DNA of 64,000 bases from Marsupella aquatica (lineage: Eukaryota > Plantae > Marchantiophyta), in the NCBI GenBank assembly GCA_973895155.1, contig OZ316892.1, forward strand, positions 30,869,802 to 30,933,801, in the 5' to 3' direction. Both the position numbers and the translations under genes were made by a program. The notes under the pieces are model-generated. The model did no database searches, was not told where the DNA came from, and saw only the letters and a program-made list of their open reading frames with translations. This document shows positions 1-39,480 of this stretch, in pieces. Numbering within the stretch: position 1 is the first letter of the stretch; every line of letters starts with the position of its first letter.

Positions 1-2619
1 GGCCATGCTTAAGATCATTCTCGATGAATTCAGAAACTTTGGGGATCTTGTCAAGGAAAAATTCTTCAACAACTTGTGGCCTTCCAAATATGCGGACAAG
101 GAAGATTACACAGAGCGGAACCGGAAGAGAGCCAAACGATATCTACACCAATTTTACATGTGGATGGAGCTTAGATCTCCTGACACTCTGTGGGCATACC
201 CGCCTGCATTTCAGAAATGGGTGTCTATTGAAGAGGGAGACGCTCTTGCCGACCTTTATTCGATGTACCCAGCGGAGGGAAAGTTTCCACCACGTTCATT
301 GTTGGAGTGGGAGAGACTTCACTGTCCGTGGTACCTCGACACAGACAAATGGGATTTACAGTTTGACAAAGCTGAGAAGGATGCCTTCATGAAGTTGCAG
401 AAGTCCCAGATCCCTGCCAACTATGTGTCTGCAATGAAGCAAGGTCTCCAGTCTGATGTTGACGAATCTGCATCTGAGTTACAAAAGAATTGTGAGTCTC
501 TTGTCATGCACGTTGACCGAAGCCGTAAGCCAAGAGCAAAGGCAAAGAATGAGTCAGCTGCACCAAGTGACTCCACAAGGTCCTTCAAGAAAAGTGAGTA
601 GTCTAAGCGCTTTTTGGTTACTTGTTGGCACTGCTTATGCAGGAGTTTCATTTGGAAATCCCTTTGATTAATAGCGCCTGGCACTAGTCTAAAAGGTTGG
701 ACTCATGCAAGTTTCTGTGCCTAATAGGAGGTCGAAAGTCCAACACTGAGGTCCCGGCTGCCGAAGGGAAGAATGATGCAACTCCTCAGGCATCGGAGGC
801 AAACACTGGAGCTCAAGAAACCCCGGATCAAGGGACCCCGGATGGTGCTGGCAAATCCATTGTCCCTGTTGACGCAACTAGCACAAAGAAAAAGAAAAAG
901 AGAGGCGCCGGTGAGGACAGAGCAGCATCATCTACTCGAGACGTTATTTCCTGTGGACTTCAAAGAGATGTCGGGAATTTTAAGCGAAGGTGTTCTAGAC
1001 ACTGTTTTGTGGAGTCCAATTTAAACAAATTTTACGATTTGGTATTTAACAAGGGGATGAAGCCCATGTGGGTTACTAAAGTTGAGGCCTGGGGAAAGGA
1101 ATTGGTAAAGTCAGGAGACAGAGAGAAGGGAGTAATGCGTGGCAGAAAAGAGAGGGGCTTTGGTGTGGATGCTGGTTTCATCTACATTCCCACTGGATTA
1201 AAACCAACACTTCTTGATCGGAAAGTTCCCAGATGGAACCTTCAGGATTACACTATTCCTAGCTCTTTCTTCCGAGCCATGGAGCCGTTCCTTGCAGACA
1301 ATGGCCTACTTGCAATTTTACACAGAGGAGACTATGATCAGGTATCTGAAGTGATTGCGGCTTGCCAGGATTCTAAGTGTTTCCAGTGTATTTCAACCCA
1401 CCATGTGGTCATGACTACACCAATGTATAGGCCCCGATCTGATACTCAGGTAACAATTCCTCTTGCACATAATAACCCCCGGCGCTACTATCAGCATTCA
1501 CAATATCTACAATTCACTTATCTTTCGTAAGGATGAATGGTAGATTAGCGCCAAGTGCTAATATATGTGTCTGTTTTCTTATACTGCCTTCATTGGGAAA
1601 CTGTGTTGTAGATATTCACACTTACTCTTAATATATTTGCCGCATTTTGACAAAGGGAAGGGTCCCGAAAGACCCCAAGTTCCGGCCACTCTCGAATGAA
1701 GAAGACCCTTCCGTCACTAACATTATTGGGTTTTCGTTGCCGCAACATGACCCAACTCCTGAGCTCCAATTTGCAGGAAATTCACGATTGCCTATGGGTT
1801 TCATGCAAACTATTTTGGAATTGGTGACTCTTCCTGGAGATATCGTTATGGACTGGACAGTAGGTTCCGGTAGTACGTTTGTGGCTGGAGATTATTTTGG
1901 TCGCTTTGTTGTTGGGCTGGAAAATCGGCCAGAGTTTGTTGATACTTCCAGTAAGGTCTTCCTCGATCTTTTACAAAACAAAGAAGTGGTTGCACCAACT
2001 CCTCCTAAGAAGATTCCTGGAAGTAAGAAGTAGGACAGGCTCCGTGCTATTCTAAATTTTGATTCGGAAGACAAGGATGAGGGTGGCAATGCTTCTCAGC
2101 AATCTAAAGATGATGAGGTGTTGAAGAATGTGGTGGACCTTGGATCTGGAGATGAGGGCAGTGAAGAGTAATTTTCTTTAGCTTTCTTTCTCTCATTGTA
2201 TACTTTTTTCCAAAGAACTCCTATACTCCCTTTTGTCTAGAAAATTCGCCCGATTTCCCAACTTTGACTAAAGAACTCCAGTTCAAATTCTCAGGTCAGA
2301 GTGGAATCTTCGGAGGCATTTTCAACTTCGAATGAACGTCTCTAGGAACGTTGTACAGACCCCAGAGAAGCCATTTGTTCTCCCCTCTTATGCTGAAAAG
2401 GCGGCACGACGGGCAGATTCAGTCAGGACGCTTACTTGGGAGAGTAAGGGTCTTAGACTCAGGAGAGGCTCAGATAGAAAGTTTGTGCAGAATCACTTCA
2501 TAGATGATATTGCAAAATCCAAGTATGTGGACGACAAAGCAGAGTCCACTGATAGATCAGAAAGTAGCAGTTCTGAATTGGGCTCAGAGTCGAGTGGTGG
2601 TTGTGGATCTAGTCTTTAG
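1..2619 (+). pseudogene. Spliced gene (5' end outside window) for a beta-class N4C/N6A DNA methyltransferase-like protein, probably disabled
   Basis: Exon ..593; GT-AG intron 594-727 joins ORFs 5..601 and 697..1530 in frame (phase 1); exon 728-1449; intron 1450-1611; exon from 1612. The protein has VDAGFIYIPTGL (position of motif IV, D/S-PPY), FFRAMEPFLADNGLLAILH, and later LPMGFMQTILELVTLPGDIVMDWTVGSGSTFVAGDYFGRFVVGLE (SAM-binding motif I region, PF01555-like). Apparent frameshift near 1631-1646 and TAG at 2031; the frame stays open to ~2170, with a possible last exon to 2619. Confidence 0.72.
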
Positions 2620-2772
2620 TTTTCTTTGTTTTATTTACCCGTTTATGGAGAACGACGACACTCAATAAGAAGCCGTGACATGTCAAATTAGAGTAGTGCC
2701 CGGCGCTATTACTGTAGCCGGTAGTTCAAAGAGGTTTTTATTTGGTTGTTTTCCTTATAGCGCCCGATGCTA
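672..2772. repeat. Dispersed 15-bp palindromic motif TAGCGCC-N-GGCGCTA, 5 degenerate copies
   Basis: 672-686 TAGCGCCTGGCACTA; 1473-1487 TAACCCCCGGCGCTA; 1546-1560 TAGCGCCAAGTGCTA; 2694-2708 TAGTGCCCGGCGCTA; 2758-2772 TAGCGCCCGATGCTA. All lie in predicted introns or the 3' flank. Confidence 0.75.
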
Positions 2773-2921
2773 GTATAAATGTACTCAATGGCCGCTTCAC
2801 GTCCAATATATGTGACAAATTTTCATACCCTTCGGTGTCTTTTTTTGGGTGCACATTTGCTGGTATGAGTTTTGTTGTTTGTTGTTTGCTGTTTACTGTT
2901 TGCTGTCACGGAGAGATCCCC

Positions 2922-5731
2922 CCATTTCTCTCTTTCCTTGACTGCGCCGGCCAACTCTCCTTGGGTCCGAGTCAGTTTATCTTTGATAATCTGATTGTCA
3001 GATTGAGCGGTATCCAACTGCCCCTGCATGATGTTTAGCTCATGCCGCTTAATCCGCAGCTCATCTTGGGCTTTCTTGGCCACTTGCAGGACTTCCACCT
3101 TGGCTTCCTTCTCCCTAAGCCGCCGGATGACCTCGTCCTTTTTGCTTCTCTCCAAAGCCACCGCTTCTTCTAATCGGTGCTTTTCCAACATCTCCCTCTG
3201 GAAAAAGGGTCCCTGCTCCAACTCCTCCCCAAAGATGCTGACCGCCAGGTCCCCACACATCTCCCCGTACTCCATGGCTCTATCCTTAGCATAGGTGGAG
3301 TAACTAGAAGTCATCAGCATCAACCACCGCGGCCTCTGCTCCCAAGCCACCTTGCGGATTTCTTCTACGGTGGCAAGAGGGTTGCTTCTTTTTTTGGCAA
3401 GCCGCCTGATGTCCTCCGGCCAATCTCCTCCTGGTAAATCCTTCTCACTAGCCAGGGCTGCTTTCTCTTCCTCCCTAAGTCGCTCCTGAAATTCTTGTGC
3501 CATCTGCTTTATGCCGTGAAAGCTCGGGGGAGCAACCTCTGGTTGGGGAGACTCGGGGCTACTCTGCTGGGTGGGGTCCCCTCAAACTACTCTTGGAAGT
3601 GTGGGGATAAATCGGCCACAGGTCCTTACTCCTGGAACAAGATGATCCAACCCATAGCCGGAGTTATCATTGTTGTAGTCCTCCATCGCCTCCTCCACTA
3701 CTTGGACTCCCGACTTCTCCCTTTGTTCCCTTGGTCCAGTCGTGAAAATGGCCTTACAGATCACGGGCTTTGGTTCTGGTTTCCAGGCTGTCGTCTCCCT
3801 CTGCTCTTCGCGGGAAGGAGCCTTAGGCTGCTCTGCCTCTGATTCGGGGCTTGAGGCTCCCACATACATTCGCACTCCCGGCTTGTGTTCTGGCCTCCGT
3901 CTCTCCTTGGCTCCGGTAAAGGGGTCTTCCCTTCTGAGTCGGCTTAGGCCGACCTCTGGGGCAGCGTCCTGTATCGGTGCCGTTGCCGTTGCTGGAACCA
4001 GTGTTGGTGCCGTTCTCTTTTCCTTCTCCAGCAATTTCAGCAGATTTTGCATGCCTGGTTGCTGCATCGGCAAGTCTTCTTTCCTTGGCCGAAACACCTG
4101 CTCGATTGTAGGACTGTTGGGCTGGTTGGGCTTCTCTGGTGCCGGCCCCTGCTCCGGAACCTCCTCCGGTGCCCTTGCCGATAGGGGAAGTATTGGGGCA
4201 AATATTTGACTTCTGGCATACCGGCACAATAGCGGCATGTGATAGCCAAGCCGGGACACGCTTCCCACGCCGATCATCTGCTGTTCCTCCTTCAAGATTT
4301 TCTTCAATTGGTTGAGGAGGTACCCGTTGTAATCCCGGCTTGGGTCTGGCCTTTCTGCTAGGTAGACCTGAGCCTTGCCGATCTCTGCCCTCGGCAAGTT
4401 ACAATGCATGGTCACCCGCAAGAAATCGATCATCTCTCCGATGTGTGGGTTAGTGCAGGTGTTCCGGAAGAAGCCATTCTTTGTTGATGGTCCTGGGAAT
4501 GACCGGAACTCCTTGTCAGGTAAGGTCTTCCTGGTATCAACCTTGGTCTTATTACCCATCGACAAGCCAAACACCTCGGCAATCACCCGGGGAGTGAGAT
4601 AGAAATCCTTCCCATACACCCTCGTGGAATTGGTCTCGGGTTCCCATGCATCCCACGAATTCTAATAAGTCTGAGTTTGGCACCTCCGGCTTCAGCCATG
4701 GTAATCTTACGAAGGCTTCCAAGCCGAATTCGGCCATGAAGCCTTGGTACTTCTTGGTCTGCATGGCCGTAAAGCATGCATCCTCCTCCCGTGCAAAGTG
4801 CAATTGCACTTCCTCCGGTAGGGTCGCCGCCCAGCCTTTCCAAGTGTCATCGTTTGTTGGAATGGCATTGATGGGATTGACCTCTTCCACTTTGGCTTCT
4901 CCCTGCCTCCTGCTCTGCTGCTCTGCTGGCTTCCTTGGTGCCGCCGACCTCGTTCTTTTTTCCGGGGTGGCCTCTTTGTTGTTGTTTCCTTTCCTCTTCA
5001 TCTCGGCTGCCGTGGATGTTTCTCCTAGCAAGGTTGCCTTTGTCCACCCCTCCGTGTTACCCTTCAACTCCCAGTGTAGGTCGTTGCAACGATTGATGGC
5101 TTCCCGGATGCCGATGATTCTGTTTTCGCAAAACAGAAGGTCGTCAAGCTGATTGGCAGTAGGAGTCCACAAGAACTTGGCCTTGATAAGTTCTCCTCCT
5201 AAGAAACCGTCTTCTGCAGTTCCCAGAGCCAAGCAAGCTCCTGCCGTTCTTGAGCTGCTCTCTCCAATTCTTTGTCCTGGTAAGTCCTAACGTACTCACC
5301 TGCCCGTTCAAACAGGCATCCCCAAAAATGTGCCACTTGATTGACGTTGCTCATACCCTCCTTGAGTTGATCATTGGTATCTGTTCCCACCCCGAGTGCT
5401 TGCCTAAGCAACTGACAGCATTTGGCCTCCCGTAGTCGTCTCCCCAGTTCATTCTTGCAAATGAGCCACTATTCCTCGCAAGCGGTCCTTACCCCTCTCC
5501 TCCTCTAGTCTTCCCTCCCGTTGGTCACCCCTAGCCGCCGACGCTTAGCGTGCCCTAACCCTAATTGTGTTCTCTCCCCCGGCGTCCTTACTTCCGGCCT
5601 CGTCCCGGGTTCCATAGTCACCCTTAATTGTTTATATTTTCCTTGTTTTTGTTCCTATACTAAGGTGTTTCCAAGGTACACTCCTGCTTTACCATGTAAA
5701 CCGGGATAGTGATTCCTGGCTAGGCATCACA
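2922..5731 (-). mobile_element. Truncated, diverged copy of family-A giant LTR with a disrupted internal ORF
   Basis: Colinear with ~11420-14046 and has the same terminus (...TAGGCATCACA at 5731). ORF pieces 5199..5411, 4552..5232, 3582..4619 and 2823..3503 match the family-A protein. Left part missing; no TSD. Confidence 0.88.
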
Positions 5732-6218: not shown

Positions 6219-6377
6219 TGTTATAAGGGACAAAACCCTAACCCTACTTACCCTAGAACATAGGAGGTTACATAACCGCCATACCATGTACTACATAGGG
6301 AGAGATTTCCACTCCCACAATGCAATGAAGGAAGTGAGCTTGCTGGTGTATTGAATGTCCATGATTAATCCATATCA
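6219..6377 (+). repeat. 5' LTR of Copia element 1
   Basis: TGTTATAAGG...CATATCA, repeated at 16817-16975. Confidence 0.95.
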
Positions 6378-6726
6378 CGTTATCAACACGACTCTATCCT
6401 TGGAGCACAATTCTTGATTTTTCCTTAAGCAATTGATTCAGTGAATCGATATGCACATTTCGAATTATTGATTGAACCAAGGATCAAATTTTTTTTCTCA
6501 AACAACACCTTGAAGGATCAGGAGCGCAGACATCTGAACACCGAATACCCACATTGAAATTTGCTCTTTGATCAATGCGAGGAAGTTTCTTCTTCACTGT
6601 TTTCTTTCCATTTGAATTTCTTAGACCTCAATGCCACAACTGATTTAAAGAATTCAGGCAGAGCATAACTCACAAATCGCTTGATATAACTCGATTTGAG
6701 ATCCTATCATCATAACTTCCATCACC

Positions 6727-9494
6727 ATGAATTCAATAGAGAAGCTTCAATTTAAGGCTCTAACTATTGATGGTGCCAATTATTTCTCCTGGTCACTTGA
6801 TGTCGAAGCATATCTTTACTCAAAAGACCTATAGGACGCTATTTTAACCGATGCAGGCCTAACATTACAGCAAAAGGCGAGAGCATTAATCTTCATACGC
6901 CACCACCTTGTAGAGCCACTCAAGATTCAATATCTCAATCAATACAACCCTCGAATTCTTTGGGAAGATCTCAAATCACGGTTTGATCACATGAGCCTAG
7001 TCTCTCTGCCGGCCGCACGCCACGACTGGATAAATTTGCGTGTACAGGACCACACTTCTATATCAAACTACAACGGAGAACTTTTTTGCATCACCTCTCA
7101 ACTCGCAATCTGTGGCCACCCAATTAATGACGCCGAGCAGATTGAAAGAACCCTATCAACATTCAGTGCCAGAAATCTCATCCTTGCATCCCAATACCAA
7201 AACATGGGTTTTACAAAATATTATGAGCTAATTGCTCATATGCTTCTTGCTGAGAAGCACCAAATACTCCTACTGGAAAATGCAAAATCTTGCCCACCAG
7301 GTACAGCCGCTCCACCACCCAAACCTGAAATCAATTTCAACAGACAAAATGATAAGATCCGAGGCAAAGGACGTGGCACATTCAGGGGGAGAGGACAACG
7401 ACCATTTATCAGAGGCAGAAACCAACAAAGGGGCAGAGGCTATGGACAATTCCATAATTTGGAATACCAATCTTCTGGACATTTTTATCGAGGAAGAGGA
7501 CAACGTGGACAAGGTAATGGATACAGAGGCAGAGGCCGTAGCGGAGGCCGTGGCCGAGGACCTAATAGTTGGACCAGAGAGAACGAAAATCTGACTGAAT
7601 GTTTCAGGTGCGGCACAAAGAGTCACCTACAGAAAAATTGCCGATCTCCTGCCCACCTGGTCCAACTTTATAAACAAAGCATGGAATTACCTAGTAATGA
7701 AGCCCATGGAAACTATATGGAAACTACAGATGATATTGAGGGATATGCACCAGAAGTACATACTGCCCAATTAGGAGCTAATCCCTCTATGCTCGACGAT
7801 CATCACAACTGTATTGTCGATAGCGGCACATCTCATTCCATCCTATGCCATAAAGATTATTTCCTACGTATCACTCCATCCCACAGATCCATGACAACCA
7901 TAACTGGACCTAATCATATAGAGGAAGGTTATGGTCCAGCACAAGTCAGATTCCCCAAGGGCACAATTCTCCACATAGACTCCGCCATTTATGCTCCGCG
8001 GGCTACTCGAAACCTGATAAGTTTCAGTGATATACGCGCCAATAAATTCCACATTCATACAGAGACATGTGGCAACCGTGAGGTCCTACATATCCTAGAA
8101 AATACCACATCAGGGAGATTAGTGCGAGAGATACTCCCCGTATATCCCCCAGGACTCTACATCACCCGAATCTATTCATATCATGCTACAAGTACTTCAC
8201 TGACTTTAACACAAATATGGCATAATTGCCTTGGACATCCTGGTACAAGTATGTACCACAATATACTGAAGGCTACCATGGGCATACCTAAAGGCGTTCA
8301 CCCATCTGCTACCAGCAAACCCTGCCTCGCATGCTCACAAGGAAAAATGGTTACCCGTCCCTCACCATCCAAGACAATACATCAGATACCACAATTTTTG
8401 GAGAGAATACACGCTGATGTCTGTGGCCCTATTGACCCTCCTTCTGGCCCATTCCGATATTTCCTAGTTATCATGATGCCTCTACTAAGTGGTCTCCCTG
8501 CTCTCTACCCGTAACCTGGTCTTCCCACGAATATTATCGCATATATTGAAATTAAAATACCAATTCCCAGAGAGTCCCATCAAAACCATTAGAGTTGATA
8601 ACGCGGGGGAATTTACCTCCAAAACTTTTGATACACTCTGTGAAACTGCAGGTATCAATACAGAATATCCGGTTCCACATGTTCACTTTCAGAATGGTCT
8701 TGCAGAATCCATAATCAAACGAATACAGATGGTGGCCAGACCTCTCTTGATGCAGTCAAATTTACCAGCATCAGCTTGGGGCCATGCGGTCCTGCATGCA
8801 GCTGCCCTTATTCAACTGAGACCGTCCTCATTTAATACACAGACCCCACATTTTCTAGCATATGGATTACCACCAAACATCACACATCTACGAATTTTTG
8901 GCTGCCTGGTACTTGTCCCAATTTTAGGTCCCAAGAGAACTAAAATGGGACCTTAGAGACAGTGCGGTATCTATGTGGGCTTTGACTCACGCTCTATTAT
9001 AAGATATTTGGAACCTTCCACAGCAGATGTTTTTAAAGCACGGTTCCAAGACTGCCATTTCTTTGAAGACGATTTTCCAACCCTTACAGAAGATCCCAAG
9101 AGAAATGGCGATGTACCAGTGAAAGACTTACAATGGTTGTCTCCTCGCCTGCTTACAGAGGACCACTGAACTAAAGAAACAGATCTGGAAGTACAACGTG
9201 TTCTCCACTTACAACAAATGCTTATGAAACTTCCCGATGCATTCAACGATGCAGCCACTGTCACTCGCTCACACATCGAAGCAGCCAACATACCAGCTCA
9301 AATTTCTCGGCAGCCTACACCAGCCACTCACGCTGCACCCAAGGCCAAAAGAGGATGCCCACTGGGATCCAAGGACTCTCATCCAAGACAGTCCCGCACG
9401 AGTGTAGCTCGTCCATCTCCATAGAACCATCTTCACAAGGACCAGCCGATAATGAGGAGATCACAATTAATTACGTACATATCGGGAAGATAAT
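6727..9494 (+). pseudogene. Copia gag - protease - integrase (stops and frameshifts)
   Basis: Zn knuckle CFRCGTKSHLQKNC, protease IVDSGTSH, GAG-pre-integrase WHNCLGHP, integrase HADVCGP / IRVDNAGEF / QNGLAE. Confidence 0.93.
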
Positions 9495-12400
9495 TGTGGT
9501 GCGTCCCATGGCTCCCTAAACCCAAGAAACCCCCCAGCTCAAGCCGATTCCCGTAGGTTTCGTGCTTGGCGAGGCCATTTCCGCGGCTTAGTGGCATGGG
9601 ACGCTGCTAACCTTCTACTACTACTATTAAAATTTTACACACATATACTGGACAGATCCTTCATCGGGTCATGAGATACGTAGCCGGCCTAATCTAGGCC
9701 TTTCCCTGTCTTCCCCTCCGTCTTCTTAGGTATGTTTGGATTCCGCCGCCGGAATGATCCCCAATAGGCTTGGTTAAGCCGCTAAGACCTCTCTCAGCTC
9801 GACACATCCAACTCTCACTCCCCTGCTTACTTTCCTTCCCTTTGGTTGATGTGGGCACTCTTCACAGAAGTTAATGCGACACACAAATAGCAAAATGACT
9901 CATTCTGACTGAGTCATACCATGCACTTGCCATACAAACAGTACATCTCATACACAAGTTCTGCGAACTAAGCCGTGAGGCCAACTCTATTCAACTCTTA
10001 GGCATGAGGAAACATGAATATACACAAGGGTCACTGTATGACTAACCGAGAGCGTCTCGTACTACTTGATCCCAGCCCGGCTGGTGCAAACTAAAAACTT
10101 GCTAAAGAAGAGGCCCTGAGCTCCCCGCTGCCCAGGTACTTATCCTGGCAGTGGATCCGCCATTCTTTGCATCGTAAGCCTAATCTACTTAACAATAATC
10201 TACTTGCCCGAATCTACCTATGTACAGCAAGGCAGGAGCACAAGTGTTGCTCCTACCAGTGGGACCGCAATCCCACTAAGCTAAGTGTCAGGGCCGCTCC
10301 TGGTCCTGATCCTAATCCTAAACTTGGAGATCAGCGCCCGCCCTGCCCACTCACGCCTCCTCCCTCCACGTCCGCCCTCCCTAAAAGGAACGGCGCCCTT
10401 GCACCGTCACGACACCGGTGGTGGATCCTTAATGGACGCCCCCAACGCTTCCTCCTCAGCCATTGCCGTAGGCTCATTCTCTGACAGATTACCTGCCCTT
10501 GACTGAGTCAACTCTCCATCGGCCTGACTGGGTCCACCATCGGCGTCGGCATCGGTACGGCCTCAGCCTCGGCTACGGTCTCCCCGGCCTGCTCAAGAGG
10601 CGGATCTGGAATACCGGCCTCATTACTGAGTAGTTCATCTTGGGCCGCACCACCCCCACCTGTGATGATAGCGGGATCTATTGCCGTATTCATGCCGGAG
10701 GATGGTGCTGGTTCTACCTCTTTGGTCACCACGGCTTGTGGAGTCGGATTACTCCTTGACCCTGAAGGTTTCCGCTTTTTCTTCTTTTCTGGTTCGGCAG
10801 CTGGTCCCTTCCCCTTCCCACTTACTTCCGGCACTGGTGCAGTTGGCGCGGCTTTTTCTTCGGCCAATACCACTCCTGGTAACTTGGTTGCCCCAATTGG
10901 AGTTGGGCCTGATGAAGACAAGCACTTAAATACTGCGGCTTGTTTCTTCAGCCGCTCTGTTTGGTTGTCGGCCCGCCGCTGGAGGTTCTCCATCTTCCTC
11001 GTGATTTCCTCCAACTCCTCCTGGGTCTCATCCAGGTCCTTGCGTGCCTCCTCTAGTTCCTTCTGGGCTTCCTCCCGTTCTTGTTTCAAGGTAGTCCTCT
11101 CCTCCTGGGTTGCTCTTAGCTCCTTGTCGAGCTCTGCAATGATGACAGACTCCATCTGGTTCATCTTGGCGTAAGTCTGTTCGAGCATCTCGTCCTTCTC
11201 CCTTAGGTCGGCCTTGAAGCTGGCCGTCAGGGACGCAAGCTCCTGCTGCAGCGCCATAATCCCTTGATAGGATTTCCCTAACTCGGCCTCCTTCTGCTCA
11301 AGGGCTCCGCGGATTTTCTCGAGCTCCCCCTTCAACGCCCATTCCTTTCTTTGGGTCTCCGCCATGGCCCGGCTGTTGGCTGTTATGTGGGCCTCCTCTG
11401 TATTCTTCAGCTCTTGCTTCCACTTCTCCCTCTCTTTGATCGTGTCGGCCAACTCTCCCTGCGTCTGAGTCAGTTTATCCTTGATATTCTGATTATCAGC
11501 CTGCGCGGTGTCCAACTGCCCCTGCATGATGTTCAGCTCATGTCGTTTAATCCGCAGTTCATCTTGGGCTTTCTTGGCCGCCCTTAGATCTTCAATCTCG
11601 GCTTCCATCCTCCTAAGCCGCCAAATGACCTCGTCCTTCTTGCTTCTCTCTAAAGCCACCGCTTCTTCTAATTGGTGCTTCTCCAACTGCTCCTTATGGA
11701 AAAAGGGTCCTACTTCCAACTCCTCTCCAAAGATGTCGAGCGCAAGTTCCCCACACATCTCACCATACTCCATGGCTCTATTCTTAGCGTAGGTGGAGTA
11801 AGTAGAAGTGATCGGCATCGCCCATCGCGGCCTCTGCTCCCAAGCCGTCTTGCAGATCTCTTCAATCGTGGCTAGAGGTTTGCTTCCTTTTTTGGCTAGC
11901 CGCCTGATGTCCTCCGGCCAATCTCCTCCTGGTAAATCCTTTTCCCTAGCCAGGGCTGCCTCCTCTTCCTGCTTGATTTGCTCCTGAAATTCCTGCACCG
12001 TCTGTTTTATGCCGTCGAAGCTCGGGGGAGCAACATTTGGTGGGGGAGACTCAGGGCTACTCTGCTGGTTGGGGTCCCCTTGCACTACCCTTGGAAGTGT
12101 GGGGACAAACCGGCCACATGTCCTTACTCCTGGGATGTGATGGTCCGACCCATAGCCGGAATTATCATGGCTGCAGTCCTCCACTGCCTCCTCTACTTCT
12201 TGGCCGTCCGGCTTCTCCCTCTCCTCTTCGTCGGTAGGAGCTTCAGGCAATTCTGCCTCAGATTCGGAGCTTGAGATTCCCACATACATTCGAACACCTG
12301 GCTTGGATTCAGGCCTAATTTTCTCCTTGTCTCCAGCAAAGGGGTTTTCTCTTGTGAGCCGGTGTAGGCCTACCTCTGTAGTAGTGTCCTGCATTGTTGC

Positions 12401-14046
12401 CGTTGCCGTTGTTGTTGCCGATGCCGATTTCTTTTCTTTCTCCAGTAGTTTCAGCAGACTCTGCATGCCTGGTTGCTGCATCGGCAAGTCCTCCTTCCTG
12501 GGCCTAAACACCTGCTCGATCGTAGGGCTAATAGGTGGTTGAGGCTTCTCAGCCAACGGCCTCGGCGTTGGAGCTTCCTCGGGTGCCCTTACCTGCAGGG
12601 GAAGTACCGGGGCAAAAGTCTGACCTCTGGCATACCGGCACAACAGCGGCATGTGATAGCCAAGCCGCGACACGCTCCCCATGCCGATTACCTGCTGCTC
12701 CTCCTTTAAGATCTTCTTCAATTGGTTGAGAAGGTACCCGTTGTAGTCCCGGCTTGGGTCTGGCCTTTCTGCCAGATAGACCTGTGCCTTGCCGATCTCT
12801 GCCCTCGGCAAGTTACAATGCATGGTCACCCGCAAGAAGTCGATCATCTCTCCTATGTGCGGGTTGGTGCAGGTGTTCCGGAAGAAGCCATTCTTCGTTG
12901 ATGGCCCGGGGAACGACCGGAACTCCTTGTCAGGCAAGGTCTTCCTGGTATCAACTTTGGTCTTATTGCCTATCGGCAAGCCAAACACTTCGGCAATTAC
13001 CTTGGGAGTAAGATAGAAATCCTTCCCATATATCCTCGTGCAATTGGTCTCGGGTTCCCATGACCCCACGAATTCTAATAGGTCTGACTCTGATACCTCC
13101 GGCTTCAGCCATGGTAATCTTACAAAGGCCTCTAAGCCGGATCCGGCCATGAAGAAGTTGGTACTTCTTGGTCTGCATGGCCGTGAAGCATGCATCCTCC
13201 TCCCGTGCAAAATGTAGTTGCACCTCCACCGGTAGGGTTGCCGCCCAGCCCTTCCAGGTGTCATCCCTGGTTGGAATGGCCTTGATGGGATCGACCTCCT
13301 CCTCTTCGGCTTCTCCCTGCCTCCTGCTCTGTTGCTCGGCTGGCTTCTTTGGTGCCGCCGACCTCGTTCTTTTTGCCGGGGTGGCTTCATCGTTGACGGC
13401 TCCCTTCCTCTTCATCTCTGCTGCCGTGGAGGTTTCTCCTAGCACTGTTGCCTGGGTCCACCTTTCCGTGCTACCCTTTAATTCCCAGTGTATGTCGTTG
13501 CAGTTCTTGATGGCCTCTCGGATGCCGACGACGCTGTCTTTGCAAAACAGAAGATCGTCGAGTTGATTGGAAGTAGGCGTCCATAGGAACTTGTCCTTGA
13601 TGAGTTCGCCTCCTAAGAAAGCCGTCTTCTGCAGCTCCCACAATCGAGCGAGCTCCTGCCGTTCTCGAGCTGCCCTTTCTGATTCCTCGTCCTCGTAAGT
13701 CTTGATGTACTCAGTTGCCCGTTCGAACAGGCATCCCCAGAAATGTGCCGCTTGATTGACGTTGCTCATACCCTCCTTAGGTCGATCATCGGTATCTACT
13801 CTCTCCCCGAGTGCTTGCTTAAGCAGCTGACAGTAGTTGGCCTCCCGTAGTCGTCTGCCTAGTTTGTGCTCGCAAATGAGCCACCATCTCCTGCAAGCGC
13901 TCCTTACCCCCGGCCTCGGCCCGGGTTCCATGGTTGCCCCTAATGGTTTATATTTTCCTTGTTTTGTCCCTATACTAAGGTGTTCCTAGGGTGCCTTCCT
14001 GCTTTACCCACTTAACTGGCCGAGTGATTCCTGTCTAGGCATCACA
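9495..14046 (-). mobile_element. Family-A giant solo LTR (4552 bp) carrying a ~1140-codon gene
   Basis: TGTGGTGC...GCATCACA termini (7/8 inverted match); 5-bp TSD ATAAT at 9490-9494 and 14047-14051; inserted between Copia integrase and RT; no gag or pol inside. Solo-LTR status and strand are inferred from the termini and by analogy with families B and C. Confidence 0.85.
10508..13931 (-). pseudogene. Family-A LTR-encoded protein: conserved N-terminal domain, Pro/Glu-rich linker, long coiled coil; one frameshift
   Basis: ORFs 12963..13931 and 10508..13390 join if 1 extra base near 13150-13156 is removed (compare 4735-4750). Heptad-rich E/K/Q/L stretch at ~10930-11700. Confidence 0.85.
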
Positions 14047-14051
14047 ATAAT

Positions 14052-15920
14052 GCAGCGTGATACAATCCGAGTTGATGATATCTTTGCATTCCAGATTTCC
14101 GAGGACATTATCAATACAACTCCTGATCCCCTAACCATTGCTGAGGCCCGAACTTGCCCGGATTGGCCACAATGGGAGCTAGCTATCAATTCAGAACTGG
14201 ACTCCCTAATCAGACGAAAAGTTTTTGGGCCCATCATTCCTGCACCTGCCGGACTTCATCTTACAGGATACAGATTTATTTTTGTTAGAAAACAAAATGC
14301 GAAAGGAGAAGTTATCAGACATAAAGCGCGCCTAGTCGCGAAGGGCTATACCCAGATCCCCGGCCGGGACTTTGATCAAACATACTCTCCTGTCATGGAT
14401 TCCATCACATATAGATATCTTATTGCATATGCTCTTATCCACAAACTAGTAATGCATATTTTAGATGTGATTACTGCCTATCTATATGGTATCCTTGATA
14501 CCAAAATTTATATGAAGGCACCCCCGGAACTCATCAAGCGATTGATGTTTCACATTGAGGGGGAGAAAACCGGTAAACTAAGCCCAGGTCTACAACCTGG
14601 AGTATAGCAAACTTGTCCTATAGGCAATTTGACTTCAGTGACAACTGAGACTGGACCTTTAGTCCCAACCACACAAGATGTGCTGCACACATCCGCTCAG
14701 AGGAAACGAATGTCTTCCTCACAGGTTACCCCTGTTACACAAACAAAGAAAGTTAAAAGAGAACTTGCAGTTCAGGTACTTCGCTCTCTATATGGTTTAA
14801 AATAGAGTGGGCGGACCTGGTATAAACGCTTCAAAGCTGAAATGATTGCACTGAATTTTATTACTGACGATATTGCCCCTTGCCTATTTCTCAAACAGGA
14901 CGGAAATGAATTTGTCATTATAGCAATTTATGTTGACGACATCAATATTTTTGGCAAAGCAAAAATTACAGCTGATACAATAGACATCCTGAAGAAGATA
15001 TTCGAGATGCGGGACATAGGTAAACCCACCTATTGCTTGGGCTTACAGTTTAATCACTTGCATCATGGCATACTCATTACTCAATCTACCTATACTGAGA
15101 AAGTATTAAAATAGTTTAACATGGAGACTGCTTACCCTGTTAGCACTCCTATGGATTTGAGATCCTCAGATCCTGCAAAGGATACATTCAGGAAATGGAC
15201 TGCACCAGAAGCCATTCTTGGCCCAGAAAAGCCTTACCTCTCAGCAATCGGGGCTCTCATGTACCTGGCTACACAGTCCCGTCCTGATATCTCTTTTGCA
15301 GTCAATCTTCTTGCACGCCATAGTGCCAAACCAACTATTCGTCACTAGAATGGCGTAAAGCAAGTATTCCGTTACCTGCGAGGAACCACAGACTGGGACT
15401 ATTCTTTCCCAAGCAGTCAGAAAATCTATTGGTGGGATATGCAGGCGCAGGATACCTTTCAGACCCTGACGATGCAAAATCCCAGACGGGATATGTTTTT
15501 CTTCAAGGAGGTACTGCTATCTCCTGGAGAAGCTGCAAACAAACATTGACAGCTACTTCGTCCAACCACGCGGAAATCATTGCCCTCTACGAAGCCACTA
15601 GGGAATGCATTTGGTGAAGAAACTTGATGGATCATATTCATACACACACAGGGAACTCTCGTTTGGATAAACCTACGATTATCTATGAAGATAATCGACC
15701 CTGTGTCGATCAGATAGTGCAGGGTTTTATCAAAGGCGATCGTATTAAACATATAGCACCTAAATTCTTTTATACACATGAGCAGCACGGCGGACAGGTC
15801 AATGTACAGTGGATTCCTAGCAAGGAAAATCGAGCAAATTTATTTACGAAACCACTACCATCATCTCTCCACAGAGAACATACATATGGTATAGCATGAG
15901 AAGCATGACCTCACTGCTGT
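14052..15920 (+). pseudogene. Copia reverse transcriptase - RNase H (stops and frameshift)
   Basis: KARLVAKGYTQ, LDVITAYLYG, SLYGLK*SGR, IYVDDI, SQTGYVF, YEDN, KHI motifs. Confidence 0.94.
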
Positions 15921-16816
15921 AGGGCATCGATAGATAAATCAGAACTGACATTATTGATGCAGCGCATTCATGAATATCTCAACATTTCTTACACACAGGC
16001 TACAGTTTCAAATATCTATAGATAACCAGCGATATACTCTACTACCATTCTGTCACTCGACATTTGACTTATGCTCATCCGCAAGCTGAATAATAGAGCC
16101 GAGCTCAGGATATATCTATAGATCAAGAATCGAGAGAGATAGACGTCAACTAGCAACCAACTCATTTTCGCACTTAATCACACATAAGCGCAACATCTTC
16201 TTACCGTCCGAGCTTTATTGATTATGACCGAGTTTTTGCACCGAGCAAACCAAGCGCAGGACGACGCCAAACTCCAGGACCCTGGGCGCACAACCGTGAA
16301 CAACGGAAGTGCAGCAATCGACCCTAACAACGACTCAATCGCCACTTCTCGACTCAACTTCTTGACTCAATAGCCATCCACATTCTACCTCAGCACTGCC
16401 GTGCAACAATATCCGATCACAGAGCAATCCCCGATTCCCCGTTCCCATCGATTGCCTCGAAGTTCAAGCTTCAGCTCACGAAGGAGACTATCGAATGTAT
16501 ACCTAGTATGTAAACTTCTTTTTACACTTAGCCTTACACTCAATAGTCAATAGAACTTAGATTTACTTTTACATATACAAACTACTGCTTAAGTTTTACA
16601 CACCCTAGTATCTTTTTTTTTGTTATAATTCTTTGATATATTTCATTTTTGGCCTTAGACCATGTAATAGTAGTGGCACTCTTCCCATGATTGAAGCATG
16701 GTTTTAATGAGACCATACTACACTTTGGCCAAATAATAGACATATCATTACAAGGGTTAGTTTTTCCCCATACTTTTATGGTTGTTTGAAATATTTTTCA
16801 TTCAACCAAGGGGGAG

Positions 16817-16975
16817 TGTTATAAGGGACAAAACCTTAACCCTACTTACCCTAGAACATAGGAGGTTACATAACCGCCATACCATGTACTACATAGGGAG
16901 AGATTTCCACTCCCACAATGCAATGAAGGAAGTGAGCTTGCTGGTGTATTGAATGTCCATGATTAATCCGTATCA
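16817..16975 (+). repeat. 3' LTR of Copia element 1
   Basis: Follows the PPT; followed by TSD GATAG. Confidence 0.95.
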
Positions 16976-20740: not shown

Positions 20741-23700
20741 TGTGACACGGGTAACGTGTCACTTGACCGAACCCAGGTCGTAGATTAGGACTTATACGGT
20801 CATTAGGACCGTAGCCATAGCGTAGAATAGCACGTATAGCCGTCAAGTTGCCATTATGATTAGATTAGGAGTAGGTTAAGATAACCGAATAATTACGAGT
20901 TCAGGAAAGGGATTATTACGCACGACCGAGGTACGGTGGCGGCAGCGGAGTAAAAATCAGTTAGAAGAATCACGCTTGGACCGAGGCGCCGACTTCAGCT
21001 CGTTATCAATGACCAAACGGCCTGACCTTCTCACGCTCGGGCTCGTCCTGGCACCCCCATAAGAGAGGAGCCGATGGCACTGCGGGCCATTCGCTCATGT
21101 TTACCTTTTTGGAATTTGCGGACGCTGCCATCCGCTCGCCTTTTTGATTGAATCCAGTCGACCTTTACGAGGAGATTATCGAGGGAGAAGAGCGGAATGT
21201 GGCGAGATTTAGTCAGGATGAGCGAGGCCTCCGCGAAAAAGGACCAGCCAGGTGGGAATGCGGACGCAACAAACCGGACTACGAGGTTAGTATGACCCTC
21301 ACAGCCTTGGGATTTTGGACCTTGTTTGGCGAGGTAGGTGCTAAGTTCTCCGAGACTTACTGGTACTCTTGCCCCGAGAAAGCCGCTTACGAACAAAGGT
21401 ACGCGAAGCTGGTAACCAAGGTAGCACTGGTTAATTGCGAAAGGACAGCCATCACCAGGGATTCTAGCTACAACGAGCTGCGAGACTACATCACCGAACT
21501 ATATCTCAACGAGGAAGGGCTTAGATCGGTAGCAGAGGCGATTCTTGAGGTTCCAGCTAAGTTCTTTAAGCTGAAGGGCAACCAACGACTTACTCAAGCG
21601 GAGTTCGACAAGATTCTGGGGTACCTAGACCAGCAGATTGCAGCCAAAAAGCGCCAAGAAGACATCAGCAGACAACGGGAAGCGGCGCGTAATCTCACGT
21701 TCCTCGGGGAAAGCTCTAACGCCTTCAACTGGGATATGGCTACCCCAGTGCCTCAACCAATGACCACCGGAGTACCGCCGAACCAGTCCCAAGTCCGTCC
21801 AGTAATCAACACGGAGTGTTCTTCGGGTTCCGAGCGAGCTAGTCCGCAACTCGAACAGCGTCCTCGTAAGCGGTCAAGGACTATGACGGCCCCCGAATCA
21901 ACACGGACCCACGCCGCGCCTGCACCTGCCCCGACAAACCCCCCAACCAACCAGACCCGACGGCCCCCGGATAACCCGAAGTCCAACTTATTACAAGTAA
22001 TCCGCGTCCCCGAGGTAGTCTGGATCGCGATCAAGAAACTCGAACATGCGGACTATCTCAAGGAGCATCAGTTGGAGCGGTTCGCCCACTTACTATGGAG
22101 GCCGTGCGCCGCCGGGCCGAAGGAGATTTGTGAGTTCATCTCCAATTTTGACACTGATGCGTCGACCACCAAGGTTTCGGGGCAGACCTTATCACTCACG
22201 GAGCATCGGTTAATGCAAATTTTCTGCCTACCAACCGGGCCGGTGCCGGTGGAAATCCAAATTCGGGATAAGGAGTATACACCGCGGCACTTCAAACCCG
22301 AGGGTAAGACGGACAACGGATACAAGCAGGGGGCGTGCACCAACTTAACCTGTATGGAGCGGCTTAACTTCATACGGACTACCCTACACATGATTGAGCC
22401 ACGATCCGAGATTTCCCTCTACACGATCGTGCAGGTGGAACAGTACAAACGACGAAACTGGGCCCAATTCTTCTACCGAAGATTCTCGGGGGAGCTGAAG
22501 CGGGCTCAGGGTGGTATGGCTATTGGAGGGAAGACTTACTTGGGAAGTCATATCGCCATTATCCTCGCCTGGTACAAGGCACGGCGGGAGGCCAGAGGAA
22601 AGAATATGGCCACCTCAGCCCCGGGTAATGTCACCCCCGCCCCAGAGGAGGCAACCCCGACTACGCGGACTACCGTCCCTCGGGCAAACCCCGAGCCGGA
22701 AGCCCCGACTAATACTCCGCAACCGCCCCCTGTGGAAATTCCACCGCCTCCTTCCGTTGAGCTTCCGCTACCTGTAGTACAACCACCCCCAATCCCTCCA
22801 CCACCTGAAGAAACCTTCCCCTCCCCAGCGCTGACTACGGAGGAGCTCATTGCCCCTGCCGAGGAACCACCGGTACCCGAGAGGATGGAGGACTACCAAG
22901 TAGCCCCGGGGACCATGGCCTACGACCTGGTCCAGAAGTTTAGCCAGACTATGTCTGGGGAGCTGGCGACATACATCGGACAACAAGTCTCGGCATACTT
23001 TCAGCCAGCCTTCTTCATGTTAGAGCACCAACCACGGATCGTCAGCCGCTTGGAAGAAGAACTCATGGCGAAGGGGAATGAGATCGGGCGTCTCCAGATG
23101 CTGGTAGAGCACCTCGAGGAGGAGGCAACGACCCGCCGCGAGGATTTAGTCCGCACTGTCGAACAGAGGGACGGACTAACCCAGGAGTTAAGCGGAGCGC
23201 AGGCCGAACTCAAGAAGCTGGACGATACCGTGCTTCAATTTACGCTCAGAATCTTCGGCTCGGGTTACCAGCCTGACCGACCTCAACAAACAATTCCTGC
23301 AGGCAGCACAGCAGGTGGCTGGTCTCTCCGCCGAACGAGATAAATTGCTAGCGCAGGACCAGGTCCATCACGACGCCATCGACCAGCTCAACTTGGAGGT
23401 GGCGCGGCTCCAGACTGAAGCCGATGAAGCTGCAAACGAGGCGGAGGAAGCAGTACGGGACAACAAGGCTTTGCAGGACCCCGTCACCCTGCTCGTCCTC
23501 CAGCGGGGAAAACCTGGGCCCACCTCTGATCAAGGCGGCTCGAGGTCTTGCCCCGACAAGGGGACCAGCCCTGGTCCAACCACTGCACACACATAAGGGG
23601 TGGTTAGCGAAGGGTAGAAGCAGGCGCCGCGCGAGGCGGTTAAGTCAGCGGCATCTTTTGGTTAGGCGTAACGACAGAATGACTGTCATTAGGCGCCGAT

Positions 23701-24580
23701 TAGCGGCAGTAGGAAGAATTAGGGCTGGTCAGTTAGGATCAGCCAACGTAGGATGGAGTCCATCAACGGACTAGAGTTTGTCAGTAGGCTTGGCCGCTGC
23801 CATTCCGGTTGGCACACTCGTAGTCGACGGTCAACCGGTCAGTGCAGCGCGACCAGTAGTCAGCAGATAGTTAGTCAGTAGGTAGTACCCCGGAAGGTAG
23901 TATCCTCCGGTTCTCTTCCGCTATGGTAGTATTTAGGCTTCCCCTTCCGCGATGGGAAGGGGGGAGAAGGCTTAGTTATCTCGGTAGAAGAAAGGCGAGG
24001 CACGGGGAGTCCCGGCCTGAGTAGGGTCAGAGCGCACCAAGGAGTGAGAGCCAGAGTCGAGCTTGCTGGGCAAGTGCGAGGCAGGGCCTCGTAGAGACTG
24101 GGCATCGACTGCCGTTGGGCCTGCTGACCCCCTTTGAAGTCGAGTCAACCATGTAAACTGATGCTTCGCTGAGTAAATGTAGTCTTTTCCCCCTAATGTT
24201 TTTGAGAGTAACTGGTGTTGTGTGTATGCTTTGTCTGGGCAAAGGCGCCATTTTAAGGGACGTACCGGGTGCGGACTAATGGTAGGGATTGCCACTCATT
24301 GCATGTCACAAGGTCCTGTCACGTCGATGGCTTGAAAAGCCCCAAGTCGGGAGTTAGTCCGCGTCACTAACTGAGGGAATATTCCAGCGGTGGAAAATAA
24401 ATATACCTATGTCAAGTACGAATTATGCGAGTGTTATACCAGTAAGTATATCGGCTTAGCCCGACTTAGGGCTATTGAAGGTCACTACACACCTCCTTGC
24501 CCGAACCCTCACCCCTACTGGTGGTCGAGGTCGCACCACGACACTAACCTGGATTTAAGGCCCTGGTTAGGGGTGCGACA
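20741..24580 (+). repeat. Family-C 5' LTR (3840 bp) containing a large sense ORF
   Basis: TGTGACAC...GTGCGACA; boundaries fixed by the TSD-flanked solo copy at 35644-39475. Confidence 0.93.
21148..23596 (+). pseudogene. Family-C LTR-encoded protein (~815 codons; conserved domain, Pro-rich linker, coiled coil); one frameshift near 23240
   Basis: 731-codon ORF plus 23315..23596; the solo copies lack the extra T and read through this point. The true start is unclear (no ATG at 21148; possible splice acceptor near 21157). Confidence 0.85.
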
Positions 24581-27600: not shown

Positions 27601-28182
27601 GGAAAATGCTACTCAGACCGTCACTCCTCCCGCAAAGAAAAAGGTTACCTGGAGCCCCGAGATTCTGTCTGTAATAGAGGAACCCAAGGAACTCCCAAAG
27701 GAGCAGCCGACAGTCTGGGAACCTGTGGCCTACGATGGCACCAGACTAGAGGAATTGGAAGCTCACCTTGACCGGGCCACCAAAGACCATGTGGAGGTAA
27801 TCCGCAAGGAATACTATGGCAGGTACACCACCAAGAGGGAGAGAACATTCAACGTCGGTTATGGCCTACGAGCGCCAGAGGAAAAGGCCATCCAAGAACT
27901 CCTATCGGAATATGAGGACGTCTTCGCATGGAGTCATCGAGACTTAACCGGGATTTCATCGGCCTATGGCGAACACGTCATCGATCTAAACTTGGGTGCT
28001 CATGCCGTCCGAGAAAGGCAACGAAGACTAAACCCAAGACATTCCGTCTTGGTAAAGGAGGAGTTGGATCAACTGATCGTGGCGGACATCATCTATCCCG
28101 TCTTATCTAGCGAATGGGTGTCCCCCATTGTGGTGGTTCCTAAGAAGGTAGGGCCTGATGGTAAACCTAAAATTCGAATATG
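24695..28182 (+). pseudogene. Family-C gag-pol N-terminal part (in-frame stops at ~25181, ~25622, ~26822)
   Basis: Gag FKGRPTDDPDEWIAKFE, Lys/Ser-rich spacer, three Zn knuckles, aspartic protease, RT N-terminus. Confidence 0.92.
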
Positions 28183-31812: not shown

Positions 31813-31984
31813 TAAGGAGTGGGGAAGCTGGTAGAATCAACAGAGGTGGCAGGAATTAAGTTAGGAGTGAGCGCTCGAAGTCTAATTTGCCTTTTCTTCA
31901 ATTCGCGTTCGCCATCCCGTTGCTAAGTCCCGTTGGAAGTAGCCGTAAGACGTCGCGATCATCGGTCGCCAACTCATAAAGCCC

Positions 31985-32110
31985 TAACTAGTAAGTCGTA
32001 ACTAGTATACTCGTAACTAGTATACTGTCGCAACCCCATAACTCGTAACTCGTAACTCGTAACTCGTAACTAGTAACTCGTAACTAGTAACTGGAGTTTA
32101 CTCGTAAACT
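31985..32110. repeat. ACTCGTA/ACTAGTA heptamer tandem array in the family-B LTR
   Basis: 4 perfect ACTCGTA copies at 32041-32068 plus variants; related clusters at ~29098-29182 and ~42545-42657. Confidence 0.9.
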
Positions 32111-32248
32111 TACTTTAAACTTGGGAACCGTAACTTGTAGACAGAATGCTATCTCCGTTTTGTTATCAACAATTAGAGGTTAAACCCCATAAAAAATTTA
32201 AAAATTTTCAGTTTCTTCATGATTTTGGAAATACCCACTACTTACATA

Positions 32249-32260: not shown

Positions 32261-32275
32261 AACGGCGCCGTGCCC

Positions 32276-39475: not shown

Positions 39476-39480
39476 AGCGG

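What the first reader, a model, noticed from the sequence alone, without database searches (positions are those of the whole stretch)
728..2033. Intron-containing, bacterial-type (beta-class) N4C/N6A DNA methyltransferase-like gene in plant heterochromatin
Seen: motif order IV then X-I-II, as in beta-class amino-methyltransferases. The SAM-binding part PGDIVMDWTVGSGST..GRFVVGLE closely follows PGDxVLDPFxGSGTT..GRxxIGxE, but the catalytic D/S-PPY position reads YIPT. The domain is fused behind at least ~300 aa of unknown, partly basic sequence. Known: such enzymes are rare, horizontally derived in eukaryotes (bdelloid N4CMT, Marchantia sperm DN4MT1). Inference: a TE-borne family that may be catalytically altered and act as a DNA-binding or epigenetic modulator; this copy seems disabled.
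Basis: partly seen in the sequence, partly recalled or inferred. Interest (0 to 1): 0.8.

Follow-up and report, generated by a model that had tools for sequence, protein, structure and literature searches.

The report
Disarmed methylase gene with own palindromes
This is a broken copy of a repeated, intron-containing plant gene that resembles a bacterial DNA methylase but lacks the catalytic motif in every relative found; it likely rides on a jumping gene and likely binds a mirror-image DNA word repeated in its own introns to shield that element from silencing, a design already proposed for seaweed transposons.

Summary
The spliced model aligns with a liverwort (Calypogeia) protein at 35% over 650 columns. 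It has a beta-class amino-methyltransferase domain (PF01555 above cut-off; profile match to phage enzymes, probability 97.9).

The odd catalytic site is not decay. 0 of 39 relatives carry D/N/S-P-P-Y/F/W, and among close copies 26 of 35 listed changes around it are synonymous. So the family is a selected pseudo-enzyme that likely still binds SAM.

Five copies of a 15-bp palindrome lie only in introns and the 3' flank; four are closer to perfect in other copies. Best reading: a DNA-transposon accessory protein that binds its own element's palindromes and likely counters silencing. No transposase, TIR or ParB domain lies in the window, so transposon carriage is inferred.

ParB-methylase accessory genes are published for algal transposons. 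The scan noted such genes, several also disarmed, many times elsewhere in this genome (unchecked AI notes). Verdict: new variant of a known kind, interest 0.5.

The parts
1..593 (+). Exon A (open at the 5' end; frame from base 2): conserved region of unknown fold, then the start of a basic linker
   Evidence: 38% identity over 97% of the query to P0046, E 9e-26; 33% over 76 aa to P0045; no Pfam, NCBIfam or Atlas assignment
594..727 (+). Intron 1 (GT..AG, 134 nt, phase 1)
   Evidence: Keeps exons A and B in frame; diverged copies differ inside 599-692 while the flanks align; similar acceptor context in L001
728..1449 (+). Exon B: basic low-complexity linker, then the N-terminal (motif IV) half of the beta-class methyltransferase fold
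   Evidence: 40 relatives; hhalign to phage beta-class enzymes; model of relative P0009 confident over this half, best Foldseek hit CcrM, E 1.9e-4
1183..1194 (+). Degenerate motif IV, Y-I-P-T in place of D/N/S-P-P-Y
   Evidence: Register; 0 of 39 family rows canonical; among copies only synonymous changes plus I>L are listed
1450..1611 (+). Intron 2 (GT..AG, 162 nt, phase 0)
   Evidence: Spliced Calypogeia models join here with matching residue spacing; L001 has a GT donor at the same codon boundary
1612..2167 (+). Exon C: motifs X-I-II (SAM-binding half), then an acidic linker; carries this copy's frameshift (T run at 1636-1638) and premature stop (2031-2033)
   Evidence: PF01555 E 8e-8; PDB sequence hits M1.HpyAVI, CcrM, M.MboIIA, M.PvuII; lesions absent from other copies (tables 3 and 4)
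1833..1922 (+). SAM-binding motifs I and II (PGDIVMDWTVGSGST ... GLE)
   Evidence: D-W-x-x-G-x-G and G[LM]E kept in 6 of 6 family sequences that cover this half properly
2168..2294 (+). Intron 3 (GT..AG, 127 nt, phase 2; boundaries inferred)
   Evidence: Keeps the frame into exon D; the model aligns with P0045 as one segment
2295..2619 (+).
   Evidence: 49% identity over 90 aa to P0045, E 3e-21; 18 K/R against 10 D/E; no Pfam family
672..686 (.). Palindrome copy 1 (consensus TAGCGCC-N-GGCGCTA), in intron 1
1473..1487 (.). Palindrome copy 2, in intron 2
   Evidence: other copies lie closer to the consensus (places 1475 and 1477; 1482 differs the other way)
1546..1560 (.). Palindrome copy 3, in intron 2
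   Evidence: closer to the consensus in other copies (place 1556)
2694..2708 (.). Palindrome copy 4, in the 3' non-coding flank
   Evidence: the one mismatch is absent in other copies (place 2697)
2758..2772 (.). Palindrome copy 5, in the 3' non-coding flank
   Evidence: closer to the consensus in other copies (place 2767)
2911..2921 (.). Breakpoint: the gene's flank is cut off and joined to an unrelated high-copy repeat (2922-5731)
   Evidence: Loose ends at 2906 (run X1) and 2922 (all four runs) and a sharp rise in depth; 2922-5731 is 85% like 11420-14046

Best explanation
This is a dead copy of a multicopy, spliced plant gene whose protein has a bacterial beta-class DNA methylase domain without the catalytic motif, and it likely is a DNA-transposon accessory protein that would bind the 15-bp palindromes in its own element's introns and flank and so likely keep the element free of host silencing. 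Shown: the exon structure, the homology, the family-wide loss of motif IV under purifying selection, the kept SAM-binding motifs, the non-coding palindromes and the decay of this copy. Inferred steps, with odds: (1) it cannot methylate adenine N6 or cytosine N4 (0.8); (2) it is carried by a cut-and-paste transposon whose transposase lies outside the window (0.8); (3) a dimer of the protein recognises the two-fold palindrome, through an upstream ParB-like part not seen here and/or the methylase fold with the basic C-terminal domain (0.65); (4) occupancy of these CG/CHG-rich sites blocks or reverses 5mC silencing in the manner of VANC (0.5).
For: Fold and motif order. Motif IV in 39 rows: position 1 is Y11 A11 F8 S4 C3 R1 T1 (no D or N); position 2 is never P; position 4 is T27 N6 and never aromatic. 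In N4CMT, replacing these same two positions (SPPY to APPA) abolishes methylation (PMC8885841, passage). Selection: 26 of 35 among-copy changes listed for 1120-1400 are synonymous, against 22-28% expected. Multicopy: 324-951 contigs at 80-100% identity lay on 1-3000 in each of 4 runs (this count includes about 100 bp of the neighbouring repeat); several distinct paralogs in Calypogeia. Palindrome: 5 copies in 1-2903 and 0 in the other 61 kb. The best palindrome of any sequence reached 5 copies in 0 of 100 shuffles and 0 of 16 control tiles (maximum 4 in each). All 5 lie in the 24% of the region that is non-coding. The distant relative L001 has two copies of a different palindrome in its non-coding DNA. 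Decay of this copy: 17 of 22 listed exonic private differences change the protein, and 28 of 40 listed differences are G>A or C>T in this copy, the signature of 5mC deamination. Precedent: Sola1-1_Ec32, PAG2/PAG3, and VANC binding of non-coding motifs. Beta-class enzymes work as dimers (PMC10406627, passages).
Against: No transposase, TIR or target-site duplication for this element in the window. No ParB signal in exon A or in P0046, which reaches about 285 aa further upstream. Binding, inactivity and anti-silencing are all untested. The SAM-binding motifs are conserved, which a pure DNA-binding protein need not keep. The homolog search was seeded with the degenerate sequence, so active relatives may lie beyond its reach. 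The variant tables are cut to the 40 best-supported rows (40 of 72), and variants co-segregate by subfamily, so the synonymous count is not a set of independent events. The SAM half of the structure model had pLDDT under 50, and the VIA search ranked tRNA methyltransferases first (Z 9.2; MboIIA 6.5). The palindrome excess over controls is modest on count alone (5 against 4).
Confidence: 0.5

Rival explanations
1. The protein is a transposition helper rather than an anti-silencer: it binds the palindromes to bring the ends together or to load the transposase, as TnpA does for CACTA elements (recalled).
For: The same palindromes and the same loss of catalysis fit; two of the sites lie in the 3' flank, towards an end.
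Against: Three of the five sites lie in introns of the gene itself, the layout reported for VANC sites (PMC5735166), not at the termini. The termini are not in the window.
Confidence: 0.15
2. The protein is the inactive half of a heterodimer (METTL14-like) that guides an active amino-methyltransferase, from another transposon family or the host, to the palindromes, so that the element is still marked with 6mA or 4mC.
For: Beta-class enzymes split DNA recognition and catalysis between subunits (PMC10406627). Inactive methylase partners are known (PMC4738411, passages). Unchecked notes describe similar genes in this genome as predicted active.
Against: No active partner in the window or among the 39 relatives; partner dependence across families is an extra assumption.
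Confidence: 0.12
3. The domain is still an enzyme with changed chemistry: it uses SAM to methylate another acceptor (protein, RNA, or DNA at another atom), with x-L-P-T/N-G as a new active-site loop.
For: SAM motifs kept in 6 of 6 sequences; P, T/N and G of the loop conserved and selected; D-L-P-Y and D-I-P-Y variants occur in 5 of 12 phage enzymes, so position 2 is tolerant.
Against: Position 1 varies freely (Y, A, F, S, C), unlike a catalytic residue, and the base-stacking aromatic residue is gone in all 39 rows.
Confidence: 0.15
4. The gene is an ordinary host gene family (DN4MT1-like) that sits among retrotransposons by chance and is not mobile.
For: No transposase in the window; conserved intron positions; liverworts are known to host a bacterial-type 4mC enzyme.
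Against: Many close copies and frequent small frameshifts among them; family-specific non-coding palindromes; DN4MT1 has TSPPY and is a two-copy gene.
Confidence: 0.06
5. The odd motif is mere pseudogene decay of an active methylase.
For: This copy is decayed.
Against: The same non-canonical motif occurs in relatives down to about 25-35% identity, and the variation at these codons is synonymous.
Confidence: 0.02

Closest known systems
Accessory gene of Ectocarpus Sola1-1_Ec32 (PMC12477816; passages read; supplements not read)
   Same: Prokaryote-type N4C/N6A methyltransferase domain in a large protein (1104 aa there; over 730 aa here, about 1000 with the part seen in P0046), proposed to bind its own transposon
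   Different: Predicted there to methylate and to carry a ParB-like domain; here motif IV is lost family-wide, the host is a land plant, and ParB and transposase are not seen in the window. Sequence homology was not tested.
Red-algal Plavaka accessory genes PAG2 and PAG3 (bioRxiv 10.1101/2025.02.11.637652; section 8 and passages read)
   Same: PF01555 domain on a repeat element (PAG2); inverted repeats next to the gene proposed as its binding sites (PAG3)
   Different: PAG2 is fused to SET, and PAG3 is ParB plus a 2OG-oxygenase. Here there is neither, and the palindromes are dispersed in introns, not arranged in tandem arrays.
VANC proteins of Arabidopsis VANDAL transposons (PMC5735166; passages read)
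   Same: Works-like model: an element-encoded protein, family-specific short motifs in introns and other non-coding parts, proposed anti-silencing
   Different: No homology was seen or tested; VANC motifs are non-palindromic 8-9-mers in tandem repeats; VANC function is shown by experiment, this is not.
Marchantia DN4MT1a/b (bioRxiv 10.1101/2021.02.12.428880; passages) and bdelloid N4CMT (PMC8885841, passages; PMC10406627, passages)
   Same: Beta-class (permuted) amino-methyltransferase domain of bacterial type in a eukaryote; N4CMT also has introns
   Different: Both keep SPPY, are active, and are low-copy host genes; this family lacks the motif and is multicopy.
CcrM, M1.HpyAVI, M.MboIIA and phage beta-class DNA methylases
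   Same: Best sequence and fold matches; CcrM also has a C-terminal extra domain that binds DNA
   Different: About 30-40% identity over the SAM half only; catalytic motif absent here; no donor lineage can be named.
Inactive methylase domain of DIRS1 retrotransposons (PMC4738411; passages)
   Same: A transposon-borne adenine-methylase domain described as likely inactive in all copies
   Different: A PCIF1-derived group-2 domain inside a retrotransposon polyprotein, not a beta-class domain in a separate spliced gene.

Membership tests
Beta-class N4C/N6A DNA methyltransferase (PF01555) | PF01555 match above the curated cut-off | tested here: met
   32.9 bits against 26.7; the relatives score below the cut-off, 14.8-24.7 bits
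Beta-class N4C/N6A DNA methyltransferase (PF01555) | Permuted order, motif IV before motifs X-I-II | tested here: met
   hhalign
Beta-class N4C/N6A DNA methyltransferase (PF01555) | SAM-binding motif I (D-x-F-x-G-x-G) and acidic motif II | tested here: met
   D-W-x-x-G-x-G and G[LM]E in 6 of 6; the usual Phe is replaced
Beta-class N4C/N6A DNA methyltransferase (PF01555) | Catalytic motif IV, D/N/S-P-P-Y/F/W | tested here: not met
   0 of 39 rows; so it is filed as a derived pseudo-enzyme, not as an active member
Beta-class N4C/N6A DNA methyltransferase (PF01555) | Methyl transfer to DNA | not testable with these tools
   needs an assay
DN4MT1 / N4CMT host 4mC writers | (T)SPPY motif | tested here: not met
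DN4MT1 / N4CMT host 4mC writers | Common descent (tree) | not tested
   their sequences were not among the hits; no tree was built
ParB-methylase accessory genes of DNA transposons (Sola1-1_Ec32 type) | N4C/N6A methylase-like domain in a large protein | tested here: met
ParB-methylase accessory genes of DNA transposons (Sola1-1_Ec32 type) | N-terminal ParB-like domain | tested here: inconclusive
   The gene start lies outside the window; P0046 shows none but is itself one exon; its model had pLDDT 37
ParB-methylase accessory genes of DNA transposons (Sola1-1_Ec32 type) | Linked DDE transposase, TIRs, target-site duplication | tested here: inconclusive
   None in the window, but the element is cut at base 1 and at about 2910; no genome is held
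ParB-methylase accessory genes of DNA transposons (Sola1-1_Ec32 type) | Own inverted-repeat sites in the element (proposed for PAG3) | tested here: met
VANC-type anti-silencing system | Family-specific short motif concentrated in non-coding parts | tested here: met
   5 of 5 sites non-coding; a different palindrome in L001
VANC-type anti-silencing system | Protein binds the motif and lowers 5mC in trans | not testable with these tools
   needs ChIP/EMSA and methylomes
VANC-type anti-silencing system | Homology to VANC | not tested
   no VANC sequence was compared; no Pfam family hit the non-methylase parts

The most novel reading that the evidence does not exclude
Bryophyte DNA transposons have turned a captured bacterial or phage DNA methylase into a catalytically dead, SAM-binding, sequence-specific DNA clamp: each family co-evolves its own palindrome and uses the pseudo-enzyme as an anti-silencing factor, a second, independently evolved VANC-like system, possibly sensing the cell's SAM level.
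Probability: 0.35. Interest if true: 0.75.

Novelty: new variant of a known kind. Interest (0 to 1): 0.5.

Why it matters
Sequence-specific anti-silencing by a transposon protein has been shown only for VANDAL/VANC (as stated in the Bostrychia preprint). The algal ParB-methylase genes are assumed to write a mark. A land-plant branch that has kept the fold and the SAM site under selection but lost the catalytic motif suggests that binding, not methylation, is the selected function. The short palindrome gives a ready target for a direct test in a liverwort, and a set of natural protein-palindrome pairs could serve as tools for targeted demethylation.

Tried and rejected
No whole genome is held, so flanks and copy number could not be read directly.

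Protein searches: the word-indexed search with exon C found nothing among longer proteins (0 of 270 candidates). Exon B alone had no meaningful PDB sequence hit, and the family profile had none at E<=1. The viral contig scan confirmed 0 of 41 candidates. The metagenome scan confirmed 1 of 587, a 1241-bp contig with no flank. Atlas searches of exon A and P0046 gave no usable hit.

Structure: the model of P0046 was unusable (pLDDT 37) and was not searched. A single-sequence comparison of P0046 with a phage ParB-like N-terminus gave probability 0.3. A dimer prediction was not run because the queue was full, so dimer formation rests on the literature only.

Depth was not used as a copy number.

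Rejected readings: 2904 as the start of an LTR, because other copies share the letters to about 2910 and then go on differently; the Val after the intron-2 donor as proof of a conserved intron, because spliced models also have Val there. No tree was built: only about 70-100 aa align well with prokaryotic enzymes.

Literature: searches listed no paper whose title or abstract start describes a land-plant pseudo-methylase accessory gene; most hits were seen as listings only. Subscription papers, reference 50 of PMC12477816 (PubMed 21507349, seen only as a citation), and the supplements of PMC12477816, PMC4738411 and the bioRxiv preprints were not read and may bear on this.

Full report
Observation. 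The ORF at 1632-2030 hits PF01555 above its cut-off (E 8e-8, 32.9 against 26.7 bits). Its best PDB sequence matches are beta-class DNA amino-methyltransferases (M1.HpyAVI E 3e-4, CcrM, M.MboIIA, M.PvuII). The rest of the window is LTR-retrotransposon sequence and unassigned ORFs: 79 ORFs of 100 aa or more were scanned (most of 48874-64000 was left out as a duplicate), and none gave a DNA-transposase family.

Gene structure. Three GT-AG introns (594-727, 1450-1611, 2168-2294) join four exons into a 731-codon model that is open at its 5' end. It aligns with the annotated Calypogeia fissa protein P0045 as one segment, 35% over 650 columns, E 8e-112. Exon A matches P0046 at 38%, and exon D matches P0045 at 49% over 90 aa. 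Contigs of four sequencing runs show that this copy has two private lesions: a missing T at 1636-1638 (present in three runs; the fourth has no cover there) and TAG at 2031-2033, where most depth in all four runs reads CAG. A metagenome relative at 36% identity has splice signals at the matching places. The named relatives are all from a liverwort, so the host is probably a bryophyte (inference).

The domain. A full HMMER scan with the exon-B half gave 40 hits; one (P0040) is a repetitive protein at the threshold and was dropped. A profile of 41 sequences aligned to a profile of 12 phage methylases, picked as hits of exon C (fetched in 60-72), with probability 97.9 and E 6e-13, placing YIPT on motif IV. 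The exon-B half alone gave the same register (probability 63, E 7e-5), and the reversed alignment gave 0.3. An AlphaFold model of P0009 was confident only for that half. Foldseek ranked CcrM first (E 1.9e-4, TM low); VIA ranked tRNA methyltransferases first and M.MboIIA at Z 6.5. So the fold evidence is supportive but weaker than the profile evidence.

The catalytic site. In the 39 of 41 rows that cover it, position 1 is never D or N (S in 4), position 2 is never P and position 4 is never aromatic. All 12 phage enzymes read D-P/L/I-P-Y. Replacing positions 1 and 4 abolishes N4CMT activity (PMC8885841, passage). Among close copies, 26 of the 35 listed polymorphic changes in 1120-1400 are synonymous, against 22-28% expected; at the motif the changes are silent except I>L (40 of 72 rows were shown, 5 private to this copy were set aside, and the changes are not independent). 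By contrast, 17 of 22 listed exonic differences private to this copy alter the protein, and 28 of 40 listed differences are G>A or C>T in this copy. So the family is under selection with the odd motif, while this copy is decaying, probably under 5mC. SAM motifs I and II persist in 6 of 6 sequences that cover them. The search was seeded with the degenerate sequence, so more remote active relatives are not excluded.

Palindromes. TAGCGCC-N-GGCGCTA occurs five times within two mismatches in 1-2903 and nowhere else in the window. A control that lets any 7-bp-arm palindrome compete reached 5 copies in 0 of 100 shuffles and 0 of 16 other tiles; the maximum was 4. All five are non-coding. Four are closer to perfect in the other copies. 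L001 carries two copies of a different palindrome upstream of its exon B. This is the layout expected of family-specific binding sites.

Context. The flank is cut at about 2910, where other copies continue differently and an unrelated high-copy repeat begins at 2922. With base 1 inside exon A, neither end of the carrier is in view. No ParB domain was detected in exon A or P0046. Transposon carriage thus rests on the multicopy state, the palindromes and precedent.

Mechanism. The best-supported reading is a transposon accessory pseudo-methylase that, as a dimer (beta-class enzymes act as dimers; PMC10406627), binds the two-fold sites in its own element and likely keeps 5mC silencing off, as VANC does for VANDAL (PMC5735166). 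Confidence is 0.5. The rivals are a transposition helper (0.15), an enzyme with new chemistry (0.15), an inactive partner of an active methylase (0.12), a host gene family (0.06) and plain decay (0.02).

What is known. A ParB-like plus N4C/N6A methylase accessory gene is described in Ectocarpus Sola1-1_Ec32, with similar proteins cited for green and red algae and the same self-binding proposal (PMC12477816). PAG2/PAG3 of red-algal Plavaka elements carry PF01555, or ParB with adjacent inverted repeats. Inactive transposon-borne methylase domains are known from DIRS1. Retrotransposon-borne DAM domains keep their catalytic pocket (bioRxiv 10.64898/2026.05.21.726589, passages). DN4MT1 and N4CMT are active SPPY enzymes and are not the right comparison.

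Earlier notes. Unchecked AI notes from this scan report ParB-methylase genes with palindromes on Mutator-, Sola- and CACTA-like elements elsewhere in this genome, many called disarmed. Look-ups by sequence found no look-alike of this copy, so this may be a further family. I reached the pseudo-enzyme and palindrome reading before these look-ups (note; statement). The notes gave me the ParB lead, the VANC comparison and three papers, and they are not counted as evidence.

Verdict. A real feature and a new variant of a known kind: a land-plant, catalytically disarmed but selected form of the algal methylase accessory gene, with a conserved extra C-terminal domain and its own palindromes. Interest 0.5.

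Noticed in passing
window 42818-48372: Copia element on the minus strand with two identical 186-bp LTRs (TG..CA) and a GAAAT target-site duplication: a very recent insertion, though its ORF is interrupted.
   Followed up: partly
window 6219-16975: Copia element with LTRs of about 160 bp (98.8% alike) and a GATAG target-site duplication, split by a nested minus-strand element at about 10.5-14.0 kb.
   Followed up: partly
window 20741-24580, 35644-39475, 58210-62041: A 3.84-kb TG..CA repeat in three copies (98%); the copy at 35644 has an AGCGG target-site duplication inside a Gypsy element, like a solo LTR, yet the repeat holds a 731-codon stop-free frame without a Pfam family.
   Followed up: partly
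window 26301-41434 and 48874-64000: A 15.1-kb direct duplication at 99.87% identity: a very recent segmental copy or an assembly artefact.
   Followed up: no
window 2823-5286 and 10508-13985 (minus strand): Two copies (75-85% alike) of a long ORF with no confident Pfam family, distantly related (29%) to the ORF inside the 3.84-kb repeat; possibly an accessory ORF of an LTR element.
   Followed up: partly
window 31933-34836: A control tile held four copies of a palindrome with arm TACTAGT, the highest count outside the finding.
   Followed up: no
window 29380-31836 (and copy 51953-54409), minus strand: Three ORFs of 186-310 aa downstream of the Gypsy pol with no Pfam family; possible extra gene of that element.
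   Followed up: no
L001 127-147 and 372-386: Two copies of a CAGCG-N5-CGCTG palindrome in non-coding DNA upstream of the homologous exon, different from the window's palindrome.
   Followed up: partly
L008 90-1349: The Natrialba phage PhiCh1 adenine methylase has a weak ParB-type N-terminus (TIGR00180, E 6e-5, below cut-off), a prokaryotic example of the ParB-methylase layout.
   Followed up: no
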